A stretch of 56,598 nt of DNA from a virus. Lineage: Duplodnaviria; Caudoviricetes. The notes under the pieces are model-generated. The model searched no databases and had not been told where the DNA came from. It saw only the letters and a list, made by a program, of their open reading frames with translations. Every line of letters begins with the position of its first letter. Within the stretch, counting starts at the first letter, position 1. A program made the position numbers and the translations under genes. Positions 18,301 through 56,531 of the stretch are shown here, piece by piece. The stretch is from IMG/VR virus record IMGVR_UViG_3300032334_000481, positions 1 to 56,598 of that record. The stretch is one strand, 5' to 3'.

Positions 18301-21300
18301 TTTATCTGTTGCTTTTTCATTTAACGCTAAAGCATCTGTTGCAGACTGAATTGCATTCATTGCAGCAATAGTTGATTCATTTACTGCAGAACCCTTTGTT
18401 GCATCATCTGCGTTTGTATTACTTATTGTTGTAACTGCATCCAAAGCAAGTTTTATAGAATTTTTAGAAACACTTAGTGGTGTTCCATCTGGTCCAAAAA
18501 GACTAGTTATTTTTGCATTGATGTCAATACCAAATTGAGTATTTTTAATTTGCTTTGCTAGATTAGCAACAATACTTCGTGCCTGTGCTGGTGAAAGGAT
18601 TCCTTGAGCAATTGCTGTGCCCATTTGAGACAAAACTAATTGTGATGTTGCTTCTGGACTACCACTCTTTAATGATTTTCCTGCTTGTTCCGATAATGCT
18701 TTTCCAGACTCTGACTCCATGTAAGATTCACCAAATGTTTTTTTACCTGGCTGGATATAGAAGAAACTGCTCGCAGATGTTTCACGTCTCTTATCCATAA
18801 GTTCTCTAGCACCAACTTTTTTAGTAAACTCTGATAACTGAGCCATCGCCTGAGTTGATGCACCAAGTACTCTTACATTCTTTGCAGATGCATCTCTAAG
18901 TTCTTTAAAGTGTGCTTCTAACTGACCTGCAATAGTTACCACCGCCATCAAGCCACCGACAACCATACCAGCAGGTCCAGGAATCATAGACATAGCGGAT
19001 GTCATAGCACCAATAGCAGGTAGTGCTGCTTGAGCACCCTTACCAATATCACCAGGAACCTGAGTTAGCAAACCAGCCAAACCAGAAGCACCATACATCA
19101 TTCCTGTGGCTTTTCCTGTAAATTCATTTCTAGTAATCAATGACTTAAGACCTTTAGGCTTTTTAACTGTCATATTGTTTTTTTCTAGATATTCTTGTTC
19201 TTTTCTATTAATATATTCATCATTTTCCTGAAGTCTCTTCTGGTCTTTTTCATCTAATTGAACTTTTGCTCTTAACTGTTTATTTTCTTGTAGTGCTCTA
19301 TCATACTTCTTAATTGACAAAGACAATTCTTCTTCTAGATTTTCCTGAGTAATCTTTAAAGTTTTTTCCTGTGTGCTATCAACACCAAGCATCTTATCTG
19401 CAAATTTAGACCACAAAGAATTACTTTGAAGTTTTTCACCAGCAGAATCTACTTTGCTACCCAACTTTTTAGCCCATCCACCAAAACTAAATTTTTGAAC
19501 AACACCACCATCTTCATATCCAGGAATAACACCGCCCTTAGCATACCCTGGCAAATTACCAGAAATCATCTGCTGAATCATAGGGCGATGTCTAGCAGCC
19601 TGAGCAGCAGGAATAACAGCCTCACCTGGAGACAGCATGGCAGGAACTACATCGCCAGCACCCTTCGGTCCTGGAACTGAAAATACTCCATCAGCAAAGA
19701 AATATGGCTTTGGCTTTGTCTTTTGTCCTGGAACTCTGTATGGGTTTGTGCTCATTCCTTTAAAGAAAGTTTTTGCAGGTATTCCGTTTACAGTAAACTC
19801 ACTTACCTCTTTACCCCAGTCATCTTCATAAATCCATTCCTGAAGAGATTGCAACATTGCTATTTTGTTTCTAGCAATTCCAGAATATACCTCTTGTCCT
19901 CCATATCCTAAAGAGTATTTTTGATACCCTGGAAGTTCTCCCAAAATAGGTTTTCCATTTACAAGCAAGTCATCAAAAGTAGGTAATCCAATTCTTTTGT
20001 ATTTACCAGTTTTTTTACTAAATACAGATTTTCCTATATCACCAAATTCACCTTGAGTTATCATTGTAGCAATTTGTGCAAGTTGGTCTAGGTCATATGT
20101 TCTGTTCCAATCTTCAAACTTAAAACTCTTTAATCTTGAAGATGTGAAAACTTTTTTATTTGCCTCTGGCTTAGTATCATCTGCACTACTATACATCATT
20201 CTAGATTTAGGTAACCATTTAAAATCATTTTCAGAAACAACTCCACCACCTGCATACCCTGGAATTACTCCACCCTTATTTAAATGAAGTCCAAACATTG
20301 CCAAAACTATTTTTGCAAGTTGTCCTAAACCACTAGTAGCAGCCTTGAATCCTAATGGATTAGTTACAGCCATACTACCTAATCCTGCCATTCCTGCAAG
20401 ACCAGCATACGCTAAACCTTGTGCAACTTCACCAATTTTTTCTGGAGCAGCCTTTGCTATCTTTTTTGCTTTGTATCCCAATGTTTGTTGTTCTAAGTAT
20501 TCTGCACTTCTAGCAATCTGATTATCAAGAGCCTCATCGCTTCTCAAACGCATCAGTCTATCCATAGATGCTGTATTTAGTCTTTCTCTTCCGTTATAAC
20601 TAGCCTCTTTGGATTGTGCTAATGCAAGAGCAAATTGTGGGTTAGATTTAATTGATTGAATAACTGCATCATCTGATAATCCTTGTTTCTTTAAATCAAC
20701 TAGTTCAAGTAGAATGTTGTGTTTTAGTTCTGCATCAGAATATGAAGACTTCTTTTGTCCCATACCAGGAATACCAAAACTTCCCTTGGCATATCCAGGA
20801 ATGATACCGCCCTTAGCAAGTTCAATAGGCAAAGTCTCTTCCCACTCAATGACCTTTTCTGTTCCGCCACCCTTCTTAAAAGCAGCAATAGCATCTTCAT
20901 ATGCGTATAGGTCTGGATAAACTTGTTCCATCTTTAGACCATTCTTTTGTAGTCCTGGATGAACCACACGCTTTTCATCTACAGAAGCAAGATACTCAAA
21001 TAGTTCCATTGCTGTCTTATATGCTTCAGTATATTGTCCATCTCTATGAAGTTTAAGAACTGACTCATATTTTGTTAATGACCTGTCTTTGTATGCTACT
21101 GTACCAGCCTCGTTCGAATAAGTATCTGAACCAACCACTTGAGAACGATACTGTCCAAGTCTAGAAAGTAATGCTTCTTGTGGTGCTGGAACTGCTCCTG
21201 GAGTTCCTCCAGAATACCCTGGAACCATTCCACCCATGTTATATCCTGGGATAACTCCACCATTGGCAAGGAAATATGGTTTTGGTTTTGTCTTTTGCCC

Positions 21301-24300
21301 TGGAACTTTATATTCATTTAAAGATAATCCCTTGAAGAAAGTTTTTGCTGGTATTCCATTTACAGTAAAGTCACTTGCTTCTTTACCCCAATCATCCGCA
21401 TAAATCCATTCTTGAAGAGATTGCAATATTGCTATTCTGTTTCTAGCAAGTCCAGCATAGACCTCTTCTCCTTCATATCCCAGGGAATACTTCTGATATC
21501 CTGGAAGTTCTCCTAATAATGGTTTTCCATTTACAAGTAGGTCTTCAAAAGTAGGAACACCAATTCTCTTATACTTACCACTTTGCTTGTTAAATACAGA
21601 CTTTCCTATACCACTAAACTCACCTTGAGTTATCATTGTAGCAATTTGTGCTAGTTCATCTAGGTCGTGTGTACGACCCCAATCTTCAAATTTAAAACTC
21701 TTTAGTCTAGAAGAAGTGAAAACTTTCTTATTAGCATTTGGCAGAGTAGATGACTCATTAGAATATTGTCTTTCTCTATCTGACTTAGGGAGCCACTTAA
21801 ATTGTCCAGGGAATTTTTCTTCAATAGCATCTCTAGGTACTTTAGAGTTTGAACGAATATTATCGGTTCCTTCGGCATACCCTGGTAAGTTACCAGCAAT
21901 CATCCCCTGAATAAGTCCACTATGCTTTGCTGCTTGTTTAGCAGGAATAACTGCTTCGCCAGGCGACAACATAGCAGGTACTACATCTCCAGCACCTTTT
22001 GGACCAGGGACTGAAAATGTACCATTAGCAAAAAAGTATGGCTTTGGCTTTGTTTTTTGACCTGGAACTCTGTATTCATTTAAAGATAATCCCTTGAAGA
22101 ATTGTTTTGCAGGAATGTTGTTTACAGTAAAGTCTTTTGCGTCTTTGCCCCAGTCATCTTCATAAATCCATTCCTGAAGTGACTGTAGCATTGCTATTTT
22201 ATTTCTAGCAATTCCAGCATATACTTCTTCACCGTCATATCCTAAAGAATATTTTTGATACCCTGGAAGTTCTCCCAAAATAGGCTTTCCATTTACAAGT
22301 AAATCATCGAAAGTAGGTAATCCAATTCTCTTATATTTACCAGTTTTTTTACTATATACAGACTTTCCTATATCACTAAACTCACCTTGAGTTATCATAG
22401 TTGCTAACTGTGCTAGTTCATCTAGGTCATATGTTTGATTCCAATCTTCGAATTTAAAACTTTTTAGTCTTGAAGATGTAAATACTTTTTTATTAGCATT
22501 TGGTTTAGTTTCATTCTCATTGTAATGCATCATTCTTGATTTAGGAAGTTGAGTAAACGCTCCTGGGAATTGCTGTTCAATAGCATCTAAAACTCTTGGA
22601 GTACCCTTAGCAAGAGCAAGTGGGTCAATAACTTTAATTCCAAGTTGGCTAACAGAAGCACGAGTTTCTGGAAGGTCATCGTAAAACTCTTCGATATCAT
22701 ACCACTGCTGATACTTAGAAGTTTTGTCATACTTCATCTGTTCTGGTTTACGATAATCTTTGCTTGCTCTAGAAATTAGTTTTACACCATTTGTGTCAAT
22801 ACCCAATTTTTGCAGGGTATCCAGTGTAACAGCATCATAAGACTGTGGTCTTGCAGTCATAAGAAGAATCTTGTTACCACGAATCTGAGCATCTTTTAAT
22901 CTTTGAATAGCGGCAGGAATACCTTTAGGGTCTTTGGCTACTTCTTCCCACCAGTTGAGTCTTTGCTCTTTAGGTAAAGCCTTGTTTCTTTCTTGATGTG
23001 CTGGCATGAATGATGCTAGGTCAAGTAGTGTGTCATCTACGTCAAATACTGATGCTTTAGGCTTTCCTGTTCCTCCTGGAACAATACCACCAGCAGCGTA
23101 TCTAGCAACACCTTCAAAGAATCTATCTGCATTTAAATTAGACTCTTCTGAATTTTTTCCAGCAAAATATTCTTTATTTTTTAGTAATTCAAAGTTTGGT
23201 ATTGCATTAATTGGATTAATCCTAAGAGTGTTTCCACCTCTTTGTGTTCTATATGTTTGCCATCCACCCTGAGTTAATGCTTCTGGTGCTGTATCTGAAT
23301 CTCTCCATTGGAATGGTTTACTTCCTCTAGCAGTTAGCAACGATTCAATTTCGTTCATTGCTGCTAATTCTTGTGGTGTCTGTTTTCCTTCAAATTTAAA
23401 AGGAGTAGATGGATTTGTTCTAGCACGACTAATTGTATTTAAAATTTGTTGATAAGTTTCTGGACTAATGTTATCCCATGCTCCAGGAACAGTTTCTTCT
23501 CCTGCTTGAGCAAACCTTCTTGCATTAGCCATTGTTCTATGCTTTAATGCACTAACTAGTTTTCTAACCTCTTCTGGACTAAGGTCATTGGCAAATGTTC
23601 CTCTTGGAATAAAGTTTGCTTTTGATGGTTCGAAAGCACTAGGGCTTGTCGCACTCATCCTGAATCTTTCTAAGGTTTCTTCTGATACTTGTTGTGGTCT
23701 ACCTTGGGCATCTGTATTAGCAGAAATATCGTAAAAGACTTTGCTCATTTGTTCATTTGTTCTAGCATTTCCACCTGCTAATGCTTCTTGTGCAATTTGA
23801 TTTGTTGACTTAACTACTCGTCCCTGTGAGTCTTTTTGAGCAGGTGCTCTCATTATGCCAACTCTTTCTGCTTGGTCACGAATAAATCTAAAGCCTCCTC
23901 CCTCTAAAATTCCTGCAACAATATTACCCAAACTTTGGTCAGTGACTTCTGCTGTAGGATTTTGCAATACTGCAGAAACAATATTAGAATCTAATGTATT
24001 TAACATTGTGTCTACAGTTGACTGATTCATAAATGATTCAGACTTCGGGTCAGCATAATCACCAACATGAGAATATAGTTTTAATTTATCAAATTTTCCA
24101 TTAAACATTTGCCAGACGCTTGCAAACTCTTGTCCATTAGGACGTGCTAATCTACTATCCTTTTTTATTCTTTGGTTTAGTTTTGTTATCATTCTTGCAG
24201 TGACATTACCCAAAAGCAAGAAAGGACTTCTATCTAATTTTTCTGGGTCTACTCTAAACCCAGTATCTCTACTCATTCTATCTATGGTTGCATCTGAAAT

Positions 24301-27300
24301 TGCTTGGGTTCTACGTCCAGTTCTAGGGTCTCTGTCATTTGGACTTGAAATTTCGTTAACTATGTGAGTGTCTTGAATTCCAAAATAAGTATCAATTTCG
24401 TCATCATTAACTTTTCCAAGATTTTTTTCGTATGCAGAGTTCTTATCTGCCTGACTCATTTCCTCATATTTATTTTTTGGAACACTAGGAGTTCCAACAG
24501 AATATTGTTTTGGTTTTACCGCAGAATGCATTACTTGATACTTAGCCCAGTCAACAGACATACCTGCCTGAAGTCTTTGCTGCATATCCATATATGCTTG
24601 CTTTTCTTCTGGAGAAAGATTACCAAAGCCAGCAATAGTAGCCTGAAGTCTTGGAGCAACTGCTTGAATCTCTGCCTTAATTGCTGCATCGTATTCTGCA
24701 GGTGTCATGCTCTTAGCAATTTCTGATGTTGATTCAGCGAAGAACTTCTTAGCACCACCCTTTACACCAAGTAGGTTGATAATGGCTTGCTCTTCCATTG
24801 AATTAATTTTGCCACCAAGTTTACGTTTACCTGATGCTGTTTGGAATACCCCAGAAGTACCAACATCTGCGAGAATGTTTTCTCCAAGATTTCCAACACC
24901 AAGGTCCTTATCTCCACGAAGAAGAGAAGCAACAAGTTGTTTAATATAATTATCCTTGCTGAAAGTTTTTGGAACATCTGCTAGTCTTTCATCTACTGGT
25001 GATTCAAGAACTAGGAACTTTCTCTTATTGTCTGGGTCTGTTGGGTCCATCATTACACGAAGTGCTTGTTGTGGTGCTACAAGACCGTGTACATCACGAG
25101 CAATGGTTGTTCCTCTAATCTCTGCCATTGCAGAAACTAAGTCCATCTGTGGCTTTACAAATACCTTAGTGCCATCTGGCTTTTCGTATACCCCACCAAC
25201 ACCAAACGCAGGGAAAGAGTGACCAGTTGTTGGAGAAATTTGTGTTCCATAATTAGTTGGTGGAGTTTGACCATAAGGACCTGCAGCAACTTCATCGCTG
25301 ATTTCCTTCATAGTCTTACCTGTTCTTACAAGACCTTCAGTTTGTTTTTCGGTAAGTGGTCCAATAGTGCTTTGACGCATACCAACACCAGTAGTACCAC
25401 TTTCAAATCCAGGAAGATTTCCTCTAACCATGCCAGCAATTACAGGTGCATATTTTCTTGCATGTTTTGCAGGGATAACTGCTTCTCCTGGAGATAGAAG
25501 AGCAGGAACAATATCTCCTGCACCAGCAGGACCAGGAACCATAGATACACCATTAGCATATTTCTTAGGTGTTGCACTTGGGTCTCCAACTGGAACACCT
25601 GGTATACCAGCGTAACCCTGTTGTGCTTGTACTGCTTGACGATATGCTTCTGTAAGTTTATTAACTGCTTCAGTTTCTGAGGTAAATGTTTGACGAAGTT
25701 TAGCGTGGGCTTGGTCAAGAGAGTCAGCAATTGCAGCAGCCCTTAGTTGTTCTGTTGTCATGTATGAAGTTTGTTCACCAAGAACATCTGATGGCTTAGT
25801 TGTTTTATTAATGAAAGCCTTAATATTTGTGAAGAGTTTCATAATGTTTGCAATACCGTTTGCAATCAAACCAAACGTCATCAAAAGAACTGGACCAATA
25901 CCTGCAACAACAGTAACTAATACCGTTATAAAACTTTTTGCACCTTCACCTAGGTTATTAAATCCATCTAGAATTTTTCCAACAAATTCAACAATTGGGG
26001 TAACAGCCTTTAGGAATGCTTCTCCAACTGGTGCAAGTTTTGCTTGCATATCTTGAAGAGATTTTTGGAACTTAAACATTGGAGAATCTGAAATCTTTTT
26101 CATTTCTCGTTCAGATAGGATTGCTAACTCTTCTGCTGAGTTTTTAGATAGTTCTGCAACCTGCTGTGCCTGACTACCCTCTGCAATTACGTTTTGAAAT
26201 AGTGTAGACATACGAGAAAACTGGAATTTTCCAAACATTTGCTCAATAGCACGAGCACGGTTTAGTGGGTCAAGTGTATCTAAGGATTTAGCAAAATCAA
26301 CGATTGTCTTTTTTAGGTCACCTTTATTGTTTTCAACAATTCCTTTAATATTAATGCCAAGTTTTCCAAGGAACTCGGAAGCCTTAGCACTAGGATTAAT
26401 CATAGATGCAAGACCAGACTTAAGTGCGTTAGCACCTTCAGATGCGTTAATGCCACCTTCCTTCATTGCTGTAAGGAAGAACGCCAGGTCTTTAACATCT
26501 CCACCAAGTTGCTTTACAACTGGGGCTGCTTTTGGAATAGCAATAGTTAGGTCATCAATGCTTAGTGTTGTCTGGTTTTCTACTGCGTTAAGGAAGTCAA
26601 TATTTTTTCCTAGGTCATCGGCTGCAATACCAAAAGCATTTGTAAGACTAATTGTTGTCTCTAGTGCTTTCTGTTGGTCTACCCCACCGAGAACAGAAAG
26701 TTTTGCAGACTGGTCAATTTGCTGTAGTAGGTCTGTACCAGTCTTACCCATAGCGGCTGCTTGAGCAGCCATATCCATAGTATCTGCAACAGCAACACCA
26801 TATTTTGTAAACTCATTTGCAAGTGCTTGAACAGACTTAACCATTTTATTGGTCTCTGTTGTTGTAGTATTCATGTCTCCATAAACACGCTTAAACTTAA
26901 TAGAGGCTGCTTCAATTTGCATATATGACTTAGCAGCGGCAGAACCCATTAGGGTAAGTGGAATTGTAAAACCAACCATCAACTGGCGACCAGCCCATTG
27001 GGTATTCTTACCAAAGTTTAGAAGTTGAGTAGAGCCTTGCTTCATCAACTGGTTAAAGAGTTGCTGTTTTTGAGCAGCAATCTGTGTCTTTGTTGCAAGA
27101 CTATTCATGTCAAGTGCAAGTGGCTTTACAGCAATAGCCTTCATTGCACCATTAGCATCACGACCAAGTTTAATATATTGGGTTTGAACTTCTTTTACTC
27201 GTTCAATTGCTACTTGCTGGATAGTGGCAAATTCTGATTTAAATAATTTACCAAATGTTTTAGATGCTCCACCAGCATAGCGAAAATATTCGCCAATTCC

Positions 27301-27558
27301 CATTTTGTTTTTTTCAAGTGCTTCTGTAAAAGACTCTGCACTTGTTTTAATGGTTTTTATATTTGCCTGGAATTTTCCAGTTGCATTAATAGAGGTTACA
27401 AGATTTTGCTGCATTGCAGCAGCAGCCTGTGCATTTGCTGCACCTGCTTTTCGCATTGCTTGCTGAAAGGCTGATATTTGTTCCTGAAGTAACTTAAGTT
27501 GAGCCAGAGCATCTGACGTATCTATATTTACTTTTATGTTGGATTCAATATCAGCCAT
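15370..27558 (-). CDS. Tail tape measure protein with large internal cargo region (4062 aa)
   Basis: N-terminal TP901-type TMP domain (AFFLTAMKEGGINASEGANALKSGL), hydrophobic helices, coiled coils, C-terminal DTVPAMLTPGEFVV motif; follows the tail chaperones. Confidence 0.93.
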   Translation of the reverse strand: MADIESNIKVNIDTSDALAQLKLLQEQISAFQQAMRKAGAANAQAAAAMQQNLVTSINATGKFQANIKTIKTSAESFTEALEKNKMGIGEYFRYAGGASKTFGKLFKSEFATIQQVAIERVKEVQTQYIKLGRDANGAMKAIAVKPLALDMNSLATKTQIAAQKQQLFNQLMKQGSTQLLNFGKNTQWAGRQLMVGFTIPLTLMGSAAAKSYMQIEAASIKFKRVYGDMNTTTTETNKMVKSVQALANEFTKYGVAVADTMDMAAQAAAMGKTGTDLLQQIDQSAKLSVLGGVDQQKALETTISLTNAFGIAADDLGKNIDFLNAVENQTTLSIDDLTIAIPKAAPVVKQLGGDVKDLAFFLTAMKEGGINASEGANALKSGLASMINPSAKASEFLGKLGINIKGIVENNKGDLKKTIVDFAKSLDTLDPLNRARAIEQMFGKFQFSRMSTLFQNVIAEGSQAQQVAELSKNSAEELAILSEREMKKISDSPMFKFQKSLQDMQAKLAPVGEAFLKAVTPIVEFVGKILDGFNNLGEGAKSFITVLVTVVAGIGPVLLMTFGLIANGIANIMKLFTNIKAFINKTTKPSDVLGEQTSYMTTEQLRAAAIADSLDQAHAKLRQTFTSETEAVNKLTEAYRQAVQAQQGYAGIPGVPVGDPSATPKKYANGVSMVPGPAGAGDIVPALLSPGEAVIPAKHARKYAPVIAGMVRGNLPGFESGTTGVGMRQSTIGPLTEKQTEGLVRTGKTMKEISDEVAAGPYGQTPPTNYGTQISPTTGHSFPAFGVGGVYEKPDGTKVFVKPQMDLVSAMAEIRGTTIARDVHGLVAPQQALRVMMDPTDPDNKRKFLVLESPVDERLADVPKTFSKDNYIKQLVASLLRGDKDLGVGNLGENILADVGTSGVFQTASGKRKLGGKINSMEEQAIINLLGVKGGAKKFFAESTSEIAKSMTPAEYDAAIKAEIQAVAPRLQATIAGFGNLSPEEKQAYMDMQQRLQAGMSVDWAKYQVMHSAVKPKQYSVGTPSVPKNKYEEMSQADKNSAYEKNLGKVNDDEIDTYFGIQDTHIVNEISSPNDRDPRTGRRTQAISDATIDRMSRDTGFRVDPEKLDRSPFLLLGNVTARMITKLNQRIKKDSRLARPNGQEFASVWQMFNGKFDKLKLYSHVGDYADPKSESFMNQSTVDTMLNTLDSNIVSAVLQNPTAEVTDQSLGNIVAGILEGGGFRFIRDQAERVGIMRAPAQKDSQGRVVKSTNQIAQEALAGGNARTNEQMSKVFYDISANTDAQGRPQQVSEETLERFRMSATSPSAFEPSKANFIPRGTFANDLSPEEVRKLVSALKHRTMANARRFAQAGEETVPGAWDNISPETYQQILNTISRARTNPSTPFKFEGKQTPQELAAMNEIESLLTARGSKPFQWRDSDTAPEALTQGGWQTYRTQRGGNTLRINPINAIPNFELLKNKEYFAGKNSEESNLNADRFFEGVARYAAGGIVPGGTGKPKASVFDVDDTLLDLASFMPAHQERNKALPKEQRLNWWEEVAKDPKGIPAAIQRLKDAQIRGNKILLMTARPQSYDAVTLDTLQKLGIDTNGVKLISRASKDYRKPEQMKYDKTSKYQQWYDIEEFYDDLPETRASVSQLGIKVIDPLALAKGTPRVLDAIEQQFPGAFTQLPKSRMMHYNENETKPNANKKVFTSSRLKSFKFEDWNQTYDLDELAQLATMITQGEFSDIGKSVYSKKTGKYKRIGLPTFDDLLVNGKPILGELPGYQKYSLGYDGEEVYAGIARNKIAMLQSLQEWIYEDDWGKDAKDFTVNNIPAKQFFKGLSLNEYRVPGQKTKPKPYFFANGTFSVPGPKGAGDVVPAMLSPGEAVIPAKQAAKHSGLIQGMIAGNLPGYAEGTDNIRSNSKVPRDAIEEKFPGQFKWLPKSDRERQYSNESSTLPNANKKVFTSSRLKSFKFEDWGRTHDLDELAQIATMITQGEFSGIGKSVFNKQSGKYKRIGVPTFEDLLVNGKPLLGELPGYQKYSLGYEGEEVYAGLARNRIAILQSLQEWIYADDWGKEASDFTVNGIPAKTFFKGLSLNEYKVPGQKTKPKPYFLANGGVIPGYNMGGMVPGYSGGTPGAVPAPQEALLSRLGQYRSQVVGSDTYSNEAGTVAYKDRSLTKYESVLKLHRDGQYTEAYKTAMELFEYLASVDEKRVVHPGLQKNGLKMEQVYPDLYAYEDAIAAFKKGGGTEKVIEWEETLPIELAKGGIIPGYAKGSFGIPGMGQKKSSYSDAELKHNILLELVDLKKQGLSDDAVIQSIKSNPQFALALAQSKEASYNGRERLNTASMDRLMRLRSDEALDNQIARSAEYLEQQTLGYKAKKIAKAAPEKIGEVAQGLAYAGLAGMAGLGSMAVTNPLGFKAATSGLGQLAKIVLAMFGLHLNKGGVIPGYAGGGVVSENDFKWLPKSRMMYSSADDTKPEANKKVFTSSRLKSFKFEDWNRTYDLDQLAQIATMITQGEFGDIGKSVFSKKTGKYKRIGLPTFDDLLVNGKPILGELPGYQKYSLGYGGQEVYSGIARNKIAMLQSLQEWIYEDDWGKEVSEFTVNGIPAKTFFKGMSTNPYRVPGQKTKPKPYFFADGVFSVPGPKGAGDVVPAMLSPGEAVIPAAQAARHRPMIQQMISGNLPGYAKGGVIPGYEDGGVVQKFSFGGWAKKLGSKVDSAGEKLQSNSLWSKFADKMLGVDSTQEKTLKITQENLEEELSLSIKKYDRALQENKQLRAKVQLDEKDQKRLQENDEYINRKEQEYLEKNNMTVKKPKGLKSLITRNEFTGKATGMMYGASGLAGLLTQVPGDIGKGAQAALPAIGAMTSAMSMIPGPAGMVVGGLMAVVTIAGQLEAHFKELRDASAKNVRVLGASTQAMAQLSEFTKKVGARELMDKRRETSASSFFYIQPGKKTFGESYMESESGKALSEQAGKSLKSGSPEATSQLVLSQMGTAIAQGILSPAQARSIVANLAKQIKNTQFGIDINAKITSLFGPDGTPLSVSKNSIKLALDAVTTISNTNADDATKGSAVNESTIAAMNAIQSATDALALNEKATDKDKQDLTTYTQQTMQTLFDNIVSTGNTGQTAQAARDALTEAYKDTGFQDTAKAVGDAVQNFSGFSDQQEIFFTQLLASKTLGTTQMQNAMNMNISGDTLLELLKTNPTAINQLLGIAGSMDRGQGTALINNQVGQTSEEIASTASALELTNKTTGVFEMDETSKKAVQEYYAGKGLNEAKEIDRIYKELDGKKTTITVDTVTTVAGTNSELAKAMKDGKVSGYFNKLKDKKNKIIFTTEFNSLIKADKELIPAIKLWASTARKDINMSDTKLLETYKIEYAFSEAKRVTQAGALQDLTVDPNDTNDEKQGPDPSILDPYVKMLREANNWQQKLTTGWNDSYKAIMKYGNAAVKQMGGIAVLMKAQGADAEIIRDFMNGTEEEQNRIVDKKTGKLRANAGALLKKLKEIKDASEIGLTYVLATPAERLAKDNELYQAGLDVISNKEKKINDKYDKRIKALDEIGKIQEKNNQRQQDTLTLADALSKGDIAAAARAALQAKQNDQKQALNDAKDSIENARKIELEGVEVRINGVLTDRTKLEAILQSNAEKIAGYKLKEEQYQYNIEQNALKSAKHMASILKDGKALALIKPYNPTTGSSGSNSSGNKDEDTKKDAKGNPIGTKYDAKGKISKDGKYNDQGKLIKPETSAAELSKLKKAASTAGLKAEATKANTASTAAQVSAASTYKLDAYKLSNAVRSGNMQSIYADVKESQRAAFTKDFAKLVGLQDTVESYYDPTGMANILNSAAGKEASENLLNALPEETKNVINLIKNRFTSYNTELADYLAKQKAYKDAAGKLGVGNVKWKDMTPDNKAKLQTVYTAYNKKVAFMFNRHKQTNDAIDQIPTLIQQGIDLGSVGLNATTKKTDIANKEVRSWGGFASGGMVIPKGYAIGGGIYGTDTVPAMLTPGEFVVRKAAVDSIGIDKLNSMNSGTSVGESVYNYSITVNANSSDANDIADAVLRQIKRVDSQRLRSNVL
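19700..22590 (-). repeat. Three diverged copies of a ~180-aa domain in the tape measure (about 22040-22590, 21275-21832, 19700-20225)
   Basis: Each copy contains ANKKVFTSSRLKSFKFEDW...GELPGYQKYSLGY...VPGQKTKPKPYF, with high DNA-level similarity. Confidence 0.95.
22620..23060 (-). other. HAD-superfamily phosphatase domain (T4 PNK 3'-phosphatase-like) inside the tape measure
   Basis: FDVDDT (motif I), MTAR (II), QMK (III), FYDD (IV). Boundaries approximate. Confidence 0.75.
24520..25260 (-). other. PI3/PI4-kinase/HipA-like kinase domain inside the tape measure
   Basis: GVGGVY (Gly loop), VFVK (Lys), AE (helix C Glu), DKDLGVGN (catalytic DxxxxN), LADVG (DFG-like). Boundaries approximate. Confidence 0.6.
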
Positions 27559-50813: not shown

Positions 50814-51031
50814 AATATAAATAATTATACACTAGGTTTTGAGTGTTTTCGATTTTTTCAAACGGTGAAAATATGAGACACCAAACCCTCATATCTGCCT
50901 GTATGCAATGAAGTTGCCAGATAGGGCAAATAAGGGTTTAAATGCCCCATAGAGACGATAAAAGGTATGCACCCTAACATCTATAGCCCCAAAATGTGAT
51001 ATACTATAAATCTACCGAAAGAGAGAGCGAT

Positions 51032-52327: not shown

Positions 52328-52401
52328 TGGGTATTGAAACAATCCTATTGTTAGCAGTAGCGTATCTATTCTTCAAGGATAAGGAAAAGAAGAATGACTA
52401 A
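52327..52401 (+). CDS. Tiny membrane peptide (24 aa)
   Basis: MGIETILLLAVAYLFFKDKEKKND; overlaps both neighbours. Confidence 0.4.
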   Translation: MGIETILLLAVAYLFFKDKEKKND

Positions 52402-52528
52402 GCCATTTATCTTCACAGGCTTAGGCTTATTCCTAATAACTGCTTGGTCATTCGTATCTCAAATACATTGGGGTAGTGTGATGGGTTGTGTAGCAGGATA
52501 TAGCCTAATGGATATGCTATTCAATTAG
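52394..52528 (+). CDS. Small membrane protein (44 aa)
   Basis: MTKPFIFTGLGLFLITAW...; AAGGA RBS; followed by a hairpin. Confidence 0.55.
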   Translation: MTKPFIFTGLGLFLITAWSFVSQIHWGSVMGCVAGYSLMDMLFN

Positions 52529-52675
52529 ATTGGTGGGTGTGTCGCTACTTGACATACCCCCAATTTTGGCGTGCGTCCCAATTATAACAAAATGATAACG
52601 AATAATGATAAATAGGTAAAATAGGCGTGTTTTAGGGGTCAAATGTCAGTGGTAGGGTATACAGTATAAGTATAA

Positions 52676-52733
52676 AGCAAATGAGCCTTAGCAAATAAAC
52701 GAGAAATCGGTGAGCCTAAGCAAATAAGTTGCT
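52676..52733 (+). ncRNA. Structured RNA hairpin 1 with two RUGAGC/CAAAUAAR internal loops (head-to-head)
   Basis: AGCAA-[ATGAGC]-CTTAG-[CAAATAAA]-CGA-GAAA-TCG-[GTGAGC]-CTAAG-[CAAATAAG]-TTGCT; starts a few nt after the predicted TSS. Confidence 0.8.
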
Positions 52734-52764
52734 AAAAGTTTCCTACTAATGAAAGGGGTCAGCA

Positions 52765-52956
52765 ATGACTTACTATGATAACTATGATGATGACGCTCAA
52801 TACGCTAAGGAAGTGTATTGGGATAGTAAGGGTATGGGTTATCTAAACCCTGCTCCTGCTCCTGTTGTGTATGTGAGAGATACCCAATGTCCTACCTGTA
52901 AGCGTTGGGGTTCTGCTAAGGCAGTTGCTTCACACGCTACTAAGTGTAAGGCTTAG
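52765..52956 (+). CDS. Small zinc-finger protein (63 aa)
   Basis: CPTC...H...C; RBS GAAAGGGG. Confidence 0.75.
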   Translation: MTYYDNYDDDAQYAKEVYWDSKGMGYLNPAPAPVVYVRDTQCPTCKRWGSAKAVASHATKCKA

Positions 52957-53080
52957 TATTTGGTGGTAGTATCACTACCCCAAAAAAACCGCACGCCCGA
53001 TTTATAACAAAATGATAACAAAATAGCAAAACACCCTAAAATAGCCCCTAAATGTCAGTGGTTAGGTGTATAGTGAAACT

Positions 53081-53194
53081 ATGAAAGATAAAAAGACAGA
53101 ACTAACCATAATGCTTGCCAAGTATGCGAGAGCAGGTATTCCCCTAACCCCAGCAGAGAGAAACCTAGTCAAGTATTTACTAAGTAAACAATAG
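53081..53194 (+). CDS. Small basic protein (37 aa), leaderless
   Basis: ATG 6 nt after the TATAGT of the 53053 promoter. Confidence 0.6.
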   Translation: MKDKKTELTIMLAKYARAGIPLTPAERNLVKYLLSKQ

Positions 53195-53295
53195 GTAAAC
53201 AATTTGCGAAACACCCTAAAAACAGGCTCAAATGTCAGTGGTTAGTGGTAATGTAATAATAGATAAATAAATAACTAATAAAAGAAAGGGTCTAA

Positions 53296-53415
53296 ATGAC
53301 TACTTATGAGATGAAAATGAGATACAAGGAACTTATGCGTATCGCAGAAAGCGAATGTATGCTCGCTAGTGAGTTTGATGAACTACAAGCGTTATTCGTA
53401 AAACTAAATAAATAA
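53296..53415 (+). CDS. Small hypothetical protein (39 aa)
   Basis: MTTYEMKMRYKELM...; RBS GAAAGGG; promoter at 53233. Confidence 0.65.
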   Translation: MTTYEMKMRYKELMRIAESECMLASEFDELQALFVKLNK

Positions 53416-53423
53416 ATAATCTT

Positions 53424-53495
53424 CGTTAGATAATGAGCCTAATTAGGTGAGCCTAGAAATAGCAAATAAACTAATTAGCAAATAAGTATCTAACG
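53424..53495 (+). ncRNA. Structured RNA hairpin 2 with two RUGAGC/CAAAUAAR internal loops (tandem)
   Basis: CGTTAGATA-[ATGAGC]-CTAATTAG-[GTGAGC]-CTA-GAAA-TAG-[CAAATAAA]-CTAATTAG-[CAAATAAG]-TATCTAACG. Confidence 0.8.
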
Positions 53496-53543
53496 CCAAC
53501 AAAACTAAATAAATAATAATCTACAAAAAGAAATGAGAAATAA

Positions 53544-53954
53544 ATGAAACTAAAAACTTGGAAATCTACCCAAATCCTTCTATCACTTAGCGACTATCGC
53601 AAGTTCTATGCTTCTATCGCAGAATTGCCTATTAGCGAAAAGCATTCCCTTATTCATAACAAACTAATTGGTCTTAGCACTATTTACCTAAACTATGACT
53701 TTGAGAATGACACTATGCTAACTCAAAAAAATAGTGAATGGAAATACTCTGCTGAATGCGATGCGTTCGCTATGAGTGAGTTTGCTAAAACTAAAAAAAT
53801 GCTTGCTGAACTTGATGAGTTAGGCGTTCCAGATTATCATAACGGAATGCGTGTCAGTGATGGCGAAACTTATTTCTTAGGTTTTCTAAAAATGGAATGC
53901 GTGTTGCGTTCTCGTGTGTTGCTTGCTCACTCGTGGAGAATAGAGCAACGCTAA
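53544..53954 (+). CDS. Hypothetical protein (136 aa)
   Basis: ORF track; purine-rich RBS; followed by a hairpin. Confidence 0.75.
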   Translation: MKLKTWKSTQILLSLSDYRKFYASIAELPISEKHSLIHNKLIGLSTIYLNYDFENDTMLTQKNSEWKYSAECDAFAMSEFAKTKKMLAELDELGVPDYHNGMRVSDGETYFLGFLKMECVLRSRVLLAHSWRIEQR

Positions 53955-54121
53955 TAATTTTTTGGTAGCAATACCAAAATTTTTGCCGCACGCCCCCAGC
54001 GACACGCCCGAAAAACATTGATAACACTATTGTTATAAAGGCATAAAAAGGTGTGTTTGTCCGCCTAAATGTCAGTGGTTAGGTTTATACTGTAAGTAGA
54101 TAAAAAGAAATGAGAAATAAA

Positions 54122-54235
54122 TTGAGTAAAGATACTGCCGAATGCTCCAAGTGTGGAGTTGTTATTGAGTTCGCTACAAGCGAAGAGTTTGAGAAATTGG
54201 TTGATGAACACATTCACCGCTATCCACTAGGCTAA
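54122..54235 (+). CDS. Small C2H2-like zinc-binding protein (37 aa, TTG start)
   Basis: CSKC...HIH; its stop codon abuts the next promoter motif. Confidence 0.6.
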   Translation: MSKDTAECSKCGVVIEFATSEEFEKLVDEHIHRYPLG

Positions 54236-54289
54236 ATGTCAGTGGTTAGTTGTATAATTGTAAATAGATAAAAAGAATAGGAAATAAAA

Positions 54290-54451
54290 ATGGTTGGAAT
54301 TATCTGTGTGTATGATGGAACTAAGACTTGGGCTTACATCTGCCCTACTTGTAAAGAGTATGATGGTCTAATGGAAATTAGCAAGGCAGTCAAAGAGTAT
54401 GACTTTATTGCTGAAATGTATGCTGATGAAATAGCGTTTATGCCTAGTTAG
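54290..54451 (+). CDS. Small hypothetical protein (53 aa, CxxD...CPTC)
   Basis: MVGIICVYD...ICPTCKEYDG; AGGA RBS; promoter at 54237. Confidence 0.7.
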   Translation: MVGIICVYDGTKTWAYICPTCKEYDGLMEISKAVKEYDFIAEMYADEIAFMPS

Positions 54452-54507
54452 CATAAATGTCAGTGGTATCCTGTATAATTGTAAGTAAGAAAAGAATAGG
54501 AAAATAA

Positions 54508-54678
54508 ATGTTAGATAAAGAATTTGATACTTTTAGACTAATGAATGAACTAAGACTAAAAGATGGTGTTGCTGGTGAAAACCCTGTTGCCTATGCCTAT
54601 GGTCTATGTTTTGGACAACTAACTCAAAAGCAAAAAGCGTTGATTGCTCAAATTGTAAATAAGATGGAGAATAAATAA
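54508..54678 (+). CDS. Small hypothetical protein (56 aa)
   Basis: MLDKEFDTFRL...; AGGA RBS; TAATG-coupled to the next ORF. Confidence 0.7.
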   Translation: MLDKEFDTFRLMNELRLKDGVAGENPVAYAYGLCFGQLTQKQKALIAQIVNKMENK

Positions 54679-54950
54679 TGAAGTTCAATGTAATTAGTGA
54701 TGCTGGACACGCTTGGCTTGAAGTAAGCCTAGACCAATTTCCTAACGCCAAACAATTTGGAACTGGCTGTGGATACATAAATGGTAATACAATTTATCTT
54801 GAAGAAGACTTTGAAATGCCACAATTCTTAGGCGACTTAGTATTCAACGGAACTCCAATGAGCGAAATACAACTTAGCGAAATTGAAGTTGATGATGAAT
54901 GGTATGGCAGAAACTATGCTCGCAATGAAGACTTATTCTCAATAAAATAA
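54678..54950 (+). CDS. Acidic hypothetical protein (90 aa)
   Basis: SDAGHAWLEV...IYLEED motif, which I recall from uncharacterised phage/plasmid proteins. Confidence 0.75.
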   Translation: MKFNVISDAGHAWLEVSLDQFPNAKQFGTGCGYINGNTIYLEEDFEMPQFLGDLVFNGTPMSEIQLSEIEVDDEWYGRNYARNEDLFSIK

Positions 54951-54969
54951 ATAGTAAAGGAAAATAAAA

Positions 54970-55176
54970 ATGGTAAAAGTTGCTCTGGTAATCTCAACTC
55001 TAATTCTAGGAATTTTTAGTTTTGTAATTGCTGACGCTTATTCTTACACTGCCCTAATCAATTCTCAAGAGAGTTATCAAGTTCTCTCTGGTCAGTGGGC
55101 GTTAGTTGGAACTGAATTAGTAATCGGTTCGCTATTGCTGGCAGTTGGTTTCATAATCAAATCACGCAAACGCTAA
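54970..55176 (+). CDS. Small two-TM membrane protein (68 aa)
   Basis: Two hydrophobic helices, basic C-terminus; AAGGA RBS. Confidence 0.7.
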   Translation: MVKVALVISTLILGIFSFVIADAYSYTALINSQESYQVLSGQWALVGTELVIGSLLLAVGFIIKSRKR

Positions 55177-55321
55177 TCAAAATAATTTTGGGGCTAACTA
55201 CCCCGAAATTTCCGCACGCCCCCGAATTATAACAGTTTGATAACAAAGGGTGTTTTGCTATTGACAAATGGCGTTTTGTGTGTAATAATAGATATATAAA
55301 TAAATAAAGCAACAAAAGGAG

Positions 55322-55390
55322 CCACGACAGTGAGCCTAGCAAATAAGTCGAACATCTGTTCGAATGAGCCTAGCAAGTAAATGTCAGTGG
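55322..55390 (+). ncRNA. Structured RNA hairpin 3 with two RUGAGC/CAARUAAR internal loops (head-to-head)
   Basis: CCACGACA-[GTGAGC]-CTAG-[CAAATAAG]-TCGAAC-ATCT-GTTCGA-[ATGAGC]-CTAG-[CAAGTAAA]-TGTC(A)GTGG; downstream of TTGACA at 55261. Confidence 0.8.
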
Positions 55391-55430
55391 TATCCCTTAT
55401 AATTGAACTACATAAAAAGAAAGATAACTA

Positions 55431-55598
55431 ATGAAGAAACCTAGAATGACAGTTGCCGAAAAGCGTTTTGAAACCCTAATCTCCAAGTTTGTATTTGTTG
55501 AGAATGGTGGAAGACTAATTGATAGCCCCCAGTGGAAAATGCTAAACAAGCAGACCCAAGACGCTTACATAACCCTAATCGCAACTAAGACACGCTAA
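55431..55598 (+). CDS. Small basic hypothetical protein (55 aa)
   Basis: MKKPRMTVAEKRF...; promoter at 55382. Confidence 0.65.
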   Translation: MKKPRMTVAEKRFETLISKFVFVENGGRLIDSPQWKMLNKQTQDAYITLIATKTR

Positions 55599-55652
55599 CC
55601 CTAAATGTCAGTGGTTAGTTGTATAATTGAAATCTAAAGAAAGAAGAAACTA

Positions 55653-55751
55653 ATGGAAGATTGGAAAATGGCGTTAGCCGAAATTCAAAAGTCAATGAGA
55701 GAAGACTTTATCTCTCAAATCAAAACTTCAAAAGAAAAGGAAAATAACTAA
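55653..55751 (+). CDS. Tiny hypothetical protein (32 aa)
   Basis: MEDWKMALAEI...; promoter at 55606; TAATG-coupled. Confidence 0.55.
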   Translation: MEDWKMALAEIQKSMREDFISQIKTSKEKENN

Positions 55752-55912
55752 TGGAAGAATTCTACAAGAGCAGAGAAGAAGATTTTGCTAAGTGGATTGA
55801 AAAAAATCAAATGCTGATTGACAACAACTTATTTACAGCAAAAGAAATTTTTGAACACGCTTATACACTTGGAGCGTTGTATGAAATCAAAAGTAGAAAC
55901 GGAGAAATCTAA
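55751..55912 (+). CDS. Small hypothetical protein (53 aa)
   Basis: MEEFYKSREEDFAKW...; AAGGA RBS. Confidence 0.65.
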   Translation: MEEFYKSREEDFAKWIEKNQMLIDNNLFTAKEIFEHAYTLGALYEIKSRNGEI

Positions 55913-55913
55913 A

Positions 55914-56114
55914 ATGGACATTAGAGAAAAGTTTACTCAAGAAGAACTAGAAGAACAGTTTGATGAAATGCTAGATGAAACTTATCCAGAATTCAAAATT
56001 GGTTATTCAACTTTTTATCCATCACAAATTTTAGCAAACTGCGACCCAATCGCTTATCAAATCTCTGTTGATGAATACATAGATTTTCTTCAAGAGCAGG
56101 AAGACGAAGAGTGA
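55914..56114 (+). CDS. Highly acidic small protein (66 aa)
   Basis: MDIREKFTQEELEEQFDEMLDETYP...CDPIAY...; GGAG RBS favours 55914 over the track start 55818. Confidence 0.75.
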   Translation: MDIREKFTQEELEEQFDEMLDETYPEFKIGYSTFYPSQILANCDPIAYQISVDEYIDFLQEQEDEE

Positions 56115-56350
56115 TAACTTTTTTTATTCTACTAACAGTTGTTTTGCTAGTAGTGTTTTTTATTAGTTGATTTTGTGGGTGTAGTATTTATACTATGCCC
56201 CAAAATTGCCGCACGCCAAATCTGCCTGGACACACGCACGCCCCGACACGCCCGAAATCATTTAAGAAGATTAAATAATTTTCCCCGATTTCCTATTGCC
56301 AAATGTCAGTGGTAGGGTGTAGAATAGTATTATCAAGAAAGGAAAAACTA

Positions 56351-56479
56351 ATGGCTAAACACTATGTAATTATGGAATACACTAACGCTAAGGGAGAAAC
56401 TAAGACGGAAGCAATGCGTTCGGTTGACATCGCTGAATTTCTAACCAAATACCCTAACGCCAAGCGTGTCTATGGCTAA
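56351..56479 (+). CDS. Small hypothetical protein (42 aa), likely paralogue of 51793-51927
   Basis: MAKHYVIMEYT...DIAEFL; GAAAGGA RBS; promoter at 56304. Confidence 0.7.
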   Translation: MAKHYVIMEYTNAKGETKTEAMRSVDIAEFLTKYPNAKRVYG

Positions 56480-56531
56480 ATGTCAGTGGTCGCTGGTAAA
56501 ATAATAACATCAAGAAGAAATGGAAAATAAA

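What the first reader, a model, noticed from the sequence alone, without database searches (positions are those of the whole stretch)
52676..55390. Recurrent RNA internal-loop module (RUGAGC / CAARUAAR): 6 copies in 3 hairpins, with covarying A.G/G.A closure
Seen: three non-coding hairpins (52676-52733, 53424-53495, 55322-55390) each contain two copies of the same 6x8 asymmetric internal loop. The flanking stems differ in sequence and length but all pair (AGCAA/TTGCT, CTTAG/CTAAG, CGTTAGATA/TATCTAACG, CTAATTAG/CTAATTAG, TCGAAC/GTTCGA, GACA/TGTC). In all 6 loops ATGAGC faces a strand ending in G and GTGAGC faces one ending in A, consistent with a swapped non-canonical A.G/G.A pair. The helix on the GC side always begins CU/AG. 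Two hairpins end in GAAA tetraloops on the transcribed strand. The loops are head-to-head in hairpins 1 and 3 and tandem in hairpin 2, so the module is portable and always paired. I do not recognise it as a known riboswitch, ribozyme or k-turn. Inference: a phage early-RNA system, such as a bivalent decoy/sponge for a dimeric host protein or defence factor, a ligand aptamer, or a put/nut-like antitermination element for this terminator-rich region.
Basis: partly seen in the sequence, partly recalled or inferred. Interest (0 to 1): 0.92.

Follow-up and report, generated by a model that had tools for sequence, protein, structure and literature searches.

The report
Modular phage early-leader RNA hairpins
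Three hairpins in the early region of an uncultured tailed phage carry repeated copies of one nearly invariant internal loop, and the same module recurs, with covarying stems, just after promoters in over a hundred related phage contigs, so it is a real structured leader RNA absent from Rfam 15 whose partner and function are still unknown.

Summary
Three + strand hairpins (52676-52733, 53424-53495, 55322-55390) each hold two copies of a 6x8 internal loop, 5'-RUGAGC / 5'-CAARUAAR. The same module occurs in 163 hairpins from 137 sources, including the window. These are uncultured phage contigs of about 37% GC, and some are complete genomes of 100-108 kb. The stems differ and covary. In 90 partner modules whose loop letters I did not fix, 75 match the 12 core loop bases exactly and 15 differ at one or two. 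Apical loops are often GNRA. The element sits on the sense strand: a promoter-like site lies upstream in 140 of 151 contexts (11 in the mirror control), and an SD-ATG lies downstream in 138 of 151 (7 in the mirror control). Rfam 15 gives no match, INPHARED gives no credible match, and no paper in the searched library holds the motif letters. It is therefore almost certainly a functional structured RNA in phage early leaders. Its function is inferred only. My best guess (about 0.3) is a recognition platform that acts on the transcribing polymerase, like nut or put sites. The rivals are an RNase III-type processing or stability site, an Aca-like regulator operator, a decoy, an aptamer and a DNA site. 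The host is unknown and no partner protein was identified.

The parts
52676..52733 (+). Hairpin 1. Two modules head-to-head, with stems AGCAA/TTGCT, CTTAG/CTAAG and CGA/TCG and a GAAA cap. It starts about 10 nt after the TACAGT -10-like hexamer of a TGTCAG-box promoter-like site and ends 31 nt before the ATG at 52765.
   Evidence: 69.7 bits, E 1.1e-15
53424..53495 (+). Hairpin 2. Two modules nested in tandem, with stems CGTTAGATA/TATCTAACG, CTAATTAG/CTAATTAG and CTA/TAG and a GAAA cap. It lies between the 39-aa ORF (53296-53415) and the 136-aa ORF (53544-53954).
   Evidence: z -2.69; 32.4 bits; the same layout with different stems occurs in L060, L125, L176 and L018
55322..55390 (+). Hairpin 3. 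Two modules head-to-head, with stems GACA/TGTC, CTAG/CTAG and TCGAAC/GTTCGA and an ATCT cap. The 3' half of the basal stem is the TGTC of the next TGTCAG box. The minimum-free-energy fold extends the basal stem to about 55318-55394.
   Evidence: z -3.84; 61.3 bits
52642..52665 (+). Promoter-like site upstream of hairpin 1: AATGTCAG box, a 10-nt spacer, then TACAGT.
   Evidence: AATGTCRG: 14 matches against 3.71 expected; the class is seen in relatives. No transcription data.
55261..55289 (+). Sigma-70-like promoter upstream of hairpin 3: TTGACA, 17 nt, AATAAT, with TG before the second hexamer.
   Evidence: 11 of 12 matches
55380..55405 (+). TGTCAG-box promoter-like site that overlaps the 3' end of hairpin 3 and precedes the 55-aa ORF at 55431.
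   Evidence: the same hairpin-then-box arrangement occurs in 54 of 152 contexts in relatives

Best explanation
Tier 1 (about 0.85): these are copies of a structured RNA element absent from Rfam 15, made as part of the 5' leader of early transcripts, or occasionally an intercistronic spacer. The phages are a group of uncultured tailed phages. The unit is a portable module. A 6-nt strand 5'-R-U-G-A-G-C faces an 8-nt strand 5'-C-R-A-N-U-A-A-R. One side is clamped by a helix that begins C-G, U-A. The other side is closed by an R.R (or sometimes canonical) pair. Two or three modules are built into one hairpin, head-to-head across a 4-5 bp helix or nested.

Inferred fold: a stacked non-Watson-Crick loop with U2-A7' cis-WC, G3.A6' sheared, A4.U5' trans WC/Hoogsteen, N4' bulged, and G5.A3' and C6.R2' pairs. 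This is a sarcin-ricin/loop E-like or UAA/GAN-like core.

Tier 2 (about 0.3, inferred): the module is a recognition platform read co-transcriptionally by a conserved trans factor. That factor could be a dimeric or multimeric RNA-binding protein, or RNA polymerase itself. Binding would mark the elongation complex that has just left an early promoter, in the manner of lambda nut or HK022 put sites. The polymerase would then read through the hairpin-plus-U signals that punctuate the early region.

Shown: the structure, its conservation, its strand, and its position relative to promoter-like and ribosome-binding-like sequences.
Not shown: transcription, any binding partner, or any effect on termination.
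For: Structure:
- In 102 distinct head-to-head hairpins, 81.8% of cells pair, against 59.8 +/- 0.8 in shuffles.
- The covariation score is 0.407 against 0.109 +/- 0.007, with 0 of 500 shuffles as high.
- Slid registers pair in only 26-46% of cells.
- The inner helix shows CUAG, CUAAG/CUUAG, CUGAG/CUCAG, CUAC/GUAG, CUAU/AUAG and CUAAU/AUUAG.
- Nested and triple layouts recur with unrelated stems.

Loop conservation:
- Among 90 partner modules chosen only by inner-helix complementarity and at least 7 of 12 loop matches, 75 match 12 of 12, 14 match 11 of 12 and 1 matches 10 of 12. The 14 changes at position 2' are all A to G, one is at position 4' and one at U2.

RNA rather than DNA:
- 25 of 39 four-base apical loops are GNRA. 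A further 13 loops parsed as CGAAA read by eye as C-GAAA-G.
- Interior wobble positions are G.U 13 against A.C 5.

Sense strand and promoter-proximal position:
- A promoter-like site lies upstream in 140 of 151 contexts, against 11 of 151 in the mirror control.
- An SD-ATG lies downstream in 138 of 151, against 7 of 151 in the mirror control.
- The -10 hexamer ends mostly 30-39 nt before the first UGAGC.

Points toward elongation control:
- The element is not next to the ribosome-binding site. The median distance to the ATG is 55 nt, and in 54 of 152 contexts a whole promoter-like site lies in between.
- The downstream sequences shown begin different ORFs.
- There are 1-3 copies per genome.
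- Stable post-gene hairpins lie in the window's early region.
- HK022 putL is likewise about 70 nt long and lies just downstream of an early promoter (PMC9378689, passages read).
Against: - There is no transcript evidence. Contigs from an RNA library overlap relatives of hairpins 2 and 3, but the tool warns that this does not show transcription.
- The consensus scan finds no excess of terminators (5 against 4.5 expected). In three complete relatives I saw many internal promoters and only weak terminator candidates, so the need for antitermination is unproven.
- put has two separate stem-loops and nut has boxA plus boxB. Neither resembles this architecture.
- No N-like or other partner gene is shared between the window and the main clade in what I could see. 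The small basic ELRRSNAA protein is present in 3 of 3 complete genomes but absent from the window and from its relative's record.
- Folding energy of hairpin 1 is no better than that of shuffles, and the opposite strand folds about as well.
- The retrieval patterns fixed part of the motif, and many sequences are related, so the counts are not independent.
Confidence: 0.3

Rival explanations
1. RNA processing or stability element. A double-stranded-RNA endonuclease (RNase III-type) or another RNase would recognise the pseudo-symmetric rod and cut in or near the loops. This would trim early leaders and intercistronic spacers and leave stable ends, as at the T7 early RNase III sites (recalled, not checked here).
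For: The element occurs in leaders after strong promoters and also between cistrons (hairpin 2). The head-to-head form has dyad symmetry that would suit a dimeric nuclease. It precedes different ORFs.
Against: Twelve near-invariant loop bases exceed what RNase III is known to need (recalled). The helices are short: 4-5 bp between the loops and 2-6 bp at the top. No cleavage data exist. Contig ends in the RNA library cannot show ends of RNA molecules.
Confidence: 0.2
2. Operator for a phage-encoded regulator acting after transcription starts. This would resemble the hairpins just downstream of the transcription start that Aca1 and Aca2 dimers bind in acr-aca operons. It would give feedback control of a burst from strong early promoters.
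For: [quoted passage not shown] Two symmetric modules would suit a dimer.
Against: No HTH or RHH family was found in 10 window early ORFs or in exemplars of 10 of the commonest neighbouring protein clusters. The window has no member in the six commonest early protein clusters of the main clade, yet it keeps the loops unchanged. The element ends a median 55 nt from the ATG, so it does not occlude the ribosome-binding site.
Confidence: 0.2
3. Decoy or sponge RNA. An abundant immediate-early RNA would titrate a host RNA-binding protein or defence factor through its repeated loops.
For: In many relatives it is driven by near-consensus promoters (TTGACT, 17 nt, TGnTAtACT) and lies upstream of a second promoter-like site. 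A leader transcript could therefore be its main product. Some loci have tandem promoter-hairpin units with 2 plus 3 modules.
Against: Model R1 finds only one hairpin in each of three complete 100-108 kb genomes. I saw no terminator after the hairpin that would define a separate small RNA. It also occurs in ordinary 5' UTRs.
Confidence: 0.1
4. Ligand-binding aptamer (tandem riboswitch).
For: The internal loops are highly conserved and repeated, as in some tandem aptamers.
Against: I saw no alternative pairing with a terminator or the SD by eye. The element precedes different small ORFs. There is no Rfam match even at E up to 10.
Confidence: 0.05
5. DNA-level element: direct-repeat binding sites for a promoter activator or repressor, or an extruded single-stranded DNA hairpin.
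For: In 54 of 152 contexts the hairpin abuts the next promoter-like box. In the window it overlaps that box. Both strands fold with similar energy.
Against: In nested layouts the two halves of a module are 10-44 nt apart. Stems covary. GNRA caps occur on one strand only. Orientation is strongly tied to transcription. G.U exceeds A.C, 13 to 5.
Confidence: 0.05

Closest known systems
HK022 put RNA (putL, putR)
   Same: It is about 70 nt of structured nascent RNA. putL lies just downstream of an early phage promoter, and putR lies further into its operon. It acts in cis on the transcribing polymerase (PMC9378689, passages read). The size, the promoter-proximal position and the occasional internal position match.
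   Different: put is two stem-loops in a V shape with a triplex. This element is one rod with 2-3 copies of an identical internal loop. There is no sequence likeness and no Rfam hit. No effect on RNA polymerase was tested.
Aca1/Aca2-associated 5' UTR RNA motifs of anti-CRISPR operons
   Same: [quoted passage not shown]
   Different: Those are inverted repeats of about 20 nt that resemble the DNA operator and end about 20 nt from the start codon. This element is 50-70 nt long, its conserved part is two large non-canonical loops, and no aca-like gene was found.
Sarcin-ricin / loop E (G-bulge) and UAA/GAN internal-loop motifs
   Same: A UA on one strand faces a GA on the other in antiparallel register (U5'A6' against G3A4), next to a U2-A7' pair. 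This fits the tWH-tHS-cWW part of the sarcin-ricin signature (PMC3854523, passages read). It also fits the UAA/GAN signature ccUAAg/uGAagg (PMC2615604, passages read).
   Different: The position of the bulged G is A, U or G here. The loop is 6x8, not 3x3. There is no 3D data. The mapping is my inference from sequence.
Lambda nut sites, T7 early RNase III sites and the LicT/SacY RAT hairpin (all recalled, not checked here)
   Same: These are leader or intercistronic RNA hairpins in early operons that a protein reads. RAT has two internal loops clamped by a dimer.
   Different: boxA/boxB, the T7 loop sequences and an overlap of RAT with a terminator were not looked for or not seen here. They are analogies of working principle only.

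Membership tests
Any Rfam 15 family | Score at or above the family's gathering threshold in cmscan | tested here: not met
   There are 0 matches in the whole window at gathering thresholds. At E up to 10 over 52600-55450 there are 3 chance-level snoRNA or lncRNA hits, and none lies on a hairpin.
Kink-turn | A 3-nt bulge followed by tandem sheared G.A/A.G, with a GA on the non-bulged strand abutting the canonical helix (definition recalled) | tested here: not met
   The 8-nt strand CAAAUAAR has no GA next to either helix. Only the 6-nt strand has a GA (and the alignment).
UAA/GAN internal loop | 5'-UAA-3' facing 5'-GAN-3' between Watson-Crick pairs (signature ccUAAg/uGAagg, PMC2615604) | tested here: inconclusive
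   UAA and GAG are present and invariant. They sit inside a larger 6x8 loop, and the register of the basal stem puts U2 opposite A7' rather than opposite the base after UAA. No structure is available.
Sarcin-ricin / loop E | Base-pair signature tHH-cSH-tWH-tHS-cWW with a bulged G (PMC3854523) | not testable with these tools
   The sequence can be threaded as A3'-N4'-U5'-A6'-A7' against U2-G3-A4-G5. The bulged position is A in 89 of 90 and U in 1 of 90 partner modules, and G in one window module.
HK022 put | About 70 nt, two stem-loops, promoter-proximal, protein-independent antitermination through the RNA polymerase beta' zinc-binding domain | tested here: not met
   Size and position are met. 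The two-stem-loop architecture is not met, because this is a single rod. Activity cannot be tested here.
Aca-associated RNA motif | A short inverted repeat directly after the TSS of an operon that encodes an HTH or RHH Aca protein | tested here: not met
   The position is similar. No HTH or RHH family was found in 20 proteins scanned: 10 window ORFs and exemplars of 10 of the commonest neighbouring clusters. Absence from whole genomes was not shown.
Lambda-type nut site | boxA consensus plus a boxB hairpin whose loop binds an arginine-rich N peptide | not tested
   I made no boxA search. An arginine-rich 46-aa ELRRSNAA protein lies about 2.5 kb downstream in the main clade, but it is absent from the window.

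The most novel reading that the evidence does not exclude
The repeated loop is a self-folding S-turn-like module that binds a universal host machine directly, with no phage protein. One version is a put-like RNA that makes RNA polymerase resistant to termination. Another is an immediate-early decoy that disarms a host RNA-targeting defence. Either would be a new class of protein-independent phage takeover RNA, built from a portable, countable unit.
Probability: 0.15. Interest if true: 0.85.

Novelty: new variant of a known kind. Interest (0 to 1): 0.62.

Why it matters
Structured leader RNAs that steer phage early expression are known from only a handful of model systems (nut, put, the Aca-bound hairpins, RNase III sites).

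This element adds one with several unusual features:
- It is widespread in uncultured freshwater and wastewater phages.
- Its 12 core loop bases are nearly invariant.
- It is modular: the same loop is used two or three times in different topologies.

That makes it an attractive target for structure determination and for fishing out its partner. If the partner is RNA polymerase or a defence protein, the element would expose a new takeover mechanism. If it is an RNase or a regulator, the element gives a compact, portable control part. It also supplies a ready covariance model for annotating these phage genomes.

Tried and rejected
N4-like phage idea. I first guessed that the 4062-aa ORF was an N4-type virion RNA polymerase and that the hairpins were DNA hairpin promoters. 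PHROGs shows that the ORF is a tape measure protein, so I dropped the idea.

Cultured relatives. blastn of 52400-55700 against INPHARED gave no match. Hairpin 1 alone gave two 18-nt chance matches (E 6) inside Clostridium phage capsid genes. The portal is at most about 45% identical to portals of Streptomyces phages. The host is not inferred.

Genome contigs. The strict pattern gave 24 hits. My own estimate is that about 20 are expected by chance. At least 8 hold a full hairpin. These sit in MAGs labelled with many phyla, which I read as mis-binned phage contigs and not as host evidence.

Partner search.
- All-against-all clustering of 6183 ORFs from 137 sources found small early protein clusters in up to 88 sources. 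The six commonest have no member in the window.
- Pfam gave only GP88 and DUF6171 and sub-threshold hits.
- The ELRRSNAA protein lies on the same strand within 6 kb in 19 of 34 sources that have enough flank. It is present in 3 of 5 records searched. It is not a universal partner.

RNA data. One metatranscriptome run (X20) and three runs of DNA or unknown kind were laid as contigs. RNA-library contigs overlap relatives of hairpins 2 and 3. The tool states that this does not show transcription, so I do not count it as evidence. The habitat labels (freshwater, wastewater) come from the run table only.

Other checks.
- The first crude G.U against A.C count was confounded by alignment register. 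I redid it on interior positions only.
- Mini-ORF idea: with a 5-bp inner helix, RUG...UAA reads M-S-L-S-K-stop. With the commoner 4-bp helix the stop is out of frame (68 of the 102 rows of alignment A1 have no base at the fifth pair). I rejected the idea.
- The weak model hit at 50865-50942 (11.9 bits) has no convincing module.
- I considered type III antitoxin repeats, CRISPR-like repeats, hairpin and twister-sister ribozymes, ANTAR, TRAP and CsrA sites from memory only. I set them aside because the nested layout or the loop sequences do not fit.
Supplementary files of papers were not opened.

Rows dropped.
- L118, L074, L204 and L207 were removed as false clusters by eye (from then on).
- Head-to-head hairpins with a central segment longer than 17 nt or an inner-helix mismatch above 1 were left out of the alignment.
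- L128 rows were replaced by the identical window rows.


Full report
WHAT IS THERE. The window is a 56.6-kb virus record. Structural and other large genes lie on the - strand. They include a portal and a 4062-aa tape measure protein. The last 6-7 kb holds small + strand ORFs. Each contains two copies of an internal loop in which 5'-RUGAGC faces 5'-CAARUAAR. RTGAGCCT occurs 8 times in the window (2.61 +/- 1.66 expected; 0 of 100 shuffles reach 8), and 6 of these are in the hairpins. AGCAARTAAR occurs 6 times (1.39 +/- 1.22 expected), all in the hairpins. Energy alone is unremarkable for hairpin 1 (z -0.11) and moderate for hairpins 2 and 3 (z -2.69, -3.84). The opposite strand folds about as well. 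Thermodynamics therefore neither proves the structure nor picks the strand.

RELATIVES. The 24 are close to my own chance estimate of about 20, but at least 8 hold a full hairpin. A half-site grammar found 163 hairpins in 137 sources: 128 of 185 viral loci, 8 of 24 genome loci and the window. Four clusters were dropped by eye as false. Layouts, with 5 for a UGAGC strand and 3 for a CAAAUAA strand: 5353 head-to-head, 125; 553533 triple, 19; 5533 nested, 6; others, 13. These sources have 32-45% GC with a median of 37%. Three complete genomes of 100-108 kb, two of them with direct terminal repeats, each hold one hit to the model. The contig of a closer relative of the window (85,019 bases) holds three hits within 4 kb, like the window.

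IS THE STRUCTURE REAL?
- I aligned 102 distinct head-to-head hairpins and counted pairs for the three helices.
- 81.8% of cells pair, against 59.8 +/- 0.8 in shuffles. The covariation score is 0.407 against 0.109 +/- 0.007. Cells changed on both sides number 371 against 131, with 0 of 500 shuffles as high. Slid registers give 26-46% paired.
- The basal and apical helices were not filtered, and they vary freely.
- The inner helix is 100% paired with compensatory types. My filter allowed at most one mismatch there, and the retrieval pattern fixed CCT..AG in one arm, so that figure is partly built in.
- The nested layout of hairpin 2 recurs with unrelated stems in L060, L125, L176 and L018.
- A covariance model from the alignment finds only the three hairpins in the window.

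THE LOOPS.
- To avoid circularity I took loci that hold one exact contiguous module. I located the partner module only by complementarity of the inner helix and at least 7 of 12 loop matches.
- Of 90 distinct partners, 75 match 12 of 12, 14 match 11 of 12 and 1 matches 10 of 12. None scores 7-9. The 16 changes are A to G at position 2' (14), A to U at 4' (1) and U to C at U2 (1).
- The closing position pairs A.G 93, G.A 54, G.U 24, A.A 10, C-G 10, G-C 6, U-A 4, C.A 2, A.C 1 and G.G 0 of 204 loops.
- The two inner-helix pairs next to the loop are C-G (101 of 102) and U-A (102 of 102), with the retrieval caveat above.

RNA, AND WHICH STRAND.
- 25 of 39 four-base apical loops are GNRA (GAAA 13, GCAA 7, GUAA 5). 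Another 13 loops parsed as CGAAA are, by eye, C-GAAA-G. UUCG-type caps also occur.
- At interior stem positions flanked by Watson-Crick pairs, G.U occurs 13 times and A.C 5 times, beside 475 Watson-Crick and 15 other pairs. This is a mild strand signal.
- A promoter-like site lies within 110 nt upstream on the motif strand in 140 of 151 distinct contexts, against 11 of 151 for the mirror image. An SD-ATG lies within 130 nt downstream in 138 of 151, against 7 of 151.
- The -10 hexamer mostly ends 30-39 nt before the first UGAGC. In hairpin 1 of the window the gap is only about 16 nt.
- The leader before the hairpin is usually A/U-rich, of the form AAUUAAAUAAAGA. By my reading it carries stop codons in several frames.
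- Together these results place the element on the sense strand as one of the first structures in early transcripts. Transcription itself is not shown. RNA-library contigs overlap relatives of hairpins 2 and 3, but that cannot prove expression.

IS IT KNOWN? Rfam 15 gives nothing at gathering thresholds and nothing on the hairpins at E up to 10. No paper in the searched library contains the motif letters. INPHARED phages have no credible match. The element is not a k-turn by sequence logic. The UA/GA core can be threaded onto the sarcin-ricin signature (tHH-cSH-tWH-tHS-cWW; PMC3854523) or onto the UAA/GAN signature (PMC2615604). That threading is inference only.

WHAT DOES IT DO? Nothing here tests function. 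The facts that constrain it are these:
- It is promoter-proximal.
- It is not next to the ribosome-binding site. The median distance to the ATG is 55 nt, and in 54 of 152 contexts a further promoter-like box starts within 25 nt after the hairpin.
- It precedes different ORFs.
- There are 1-3 copies per genome.
- The loops are unchanged between the window and the main clade, although the window has no member in that clade's six commonest early protein clusters.
- Modules come in twos or threes, usually with dyad symmetry.

I read this as a recognition platform for a conserved factor. The platform would be loaded as the RNA emerges. Elongation control of the nut or put kind is my single most likely mechanism, at about 0.3. 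putL is also about 70 nt long and lies just after an early promoter. Against this reading:
- The terminator scan shows no excess.
- Relatives have many internal promoters.
- The architecture matches neither put nor nut.

The rivals are an RNase III-type processing or stability site (0.2), an Aca-like regulator operator (0.2), a decoy (0.1), an aptamer (0.05) and a DNA-level site (0.05). About 0.1 is left for something not listed.

VERDICT. It is a widespread, covariation-supported, modular RNA motif of phage early leaders that is absent from Rfam 15. Its mechanism is open. Caveats:
- Pattern-based retrieval fixed part of the motif.
- Many sequences are related.
- The host is unknown.
- There are no transcript or binding data.

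Noticed in passing
window 52642-56486, + strand: AATGTCAG boxes lie 10 nt upstream of TAnnnT hexamers in front of most small early ORFs. AATGTCRG has 14 matches in the window against 3.71 expected, and 10 of them are on the + strand in this stretch. In relatives the box directly follows a TTGACA-like -35. A conserved TGTCAG in the promoter spacer is unusual and may be a factor-binding site.
   Followed up: partly
window 52568-52600, 52989-53019, 53985-54038, 55212-55249: After each post-gene hairpin there is a repeated box, CCGCACGCCC (or GGCGTGCGTCCC), followed by TTATAAC-N-GATAAC-like words. Relatives carry CGACACGCCG or CGGCGTGTCG upstream of their -35. This could be an operator or an UP-like element.
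   Followed up: no
window 15370-27558, - strand: The tape measure protein is 4062 aa long. An internal stretch (aa 1499-1645) matches a polynucleotide kinase PHROG (E 1.5e-11).
   Followed up: no
L024:7335-7481 and 47 other loci; G002:C1:17703-17831, G003:C1:59735-59833, G005:C1:70179-70313: A family of basic proteins of about 46 aa has an invariant ELRRSNAA motif followed by a KKKYxRK tail and has no Pfam match. It lies about 2.5 kb downstream of the hairpin on the same strand in the main clade. It is present in 3 of 3 complete genomes and absent from the window and from the record that holds L208. It might be an arginine-rich RNA binder.
   Followed up: partly
L157:2950-3140: A divergent early control region lies between oppositely oriented hairpin units. 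It holds a perfect DnaA-box word, TTATCCACA (3034-3042), and repeated GCACGTCC words. Twelve loci show such divergent hairpin units 1.1-2.5 kb apart. This may be an origin of replication.
   Followed up: no
relatives, e.g. L038:2960-2990 and L004:3775-3800: The -10 region of the promoter-like site after the hairpin is a 7-bp palindrome with a 3-nt loop (GATAGGA-TAG-TCTTATC). The halves change together between phages and hold a G.T pair. The window has no counterpart.
   Followed up: no
relatives with triple-module hairpins, e.g. L134, L146, L157:3440-3480: A second small hairpin with covarying stems (GGTTAGC..GCTAAC, GGTTAGA..TCTAACC, GATAAC..GTTATC) sits between the triple-module hairpin and the SD.
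   Followed up: no
L186-L209 (genome contigs): Contigs with the full hairpin are binned into MAGs labelled Bacteroidia, Flavobacteriia, Rhodobacteraceae, Methylococcus, Beijerinckiaceae, Bifidobacterium and others. The labels disagree with one another, so they give no host.
   Followed up: partly
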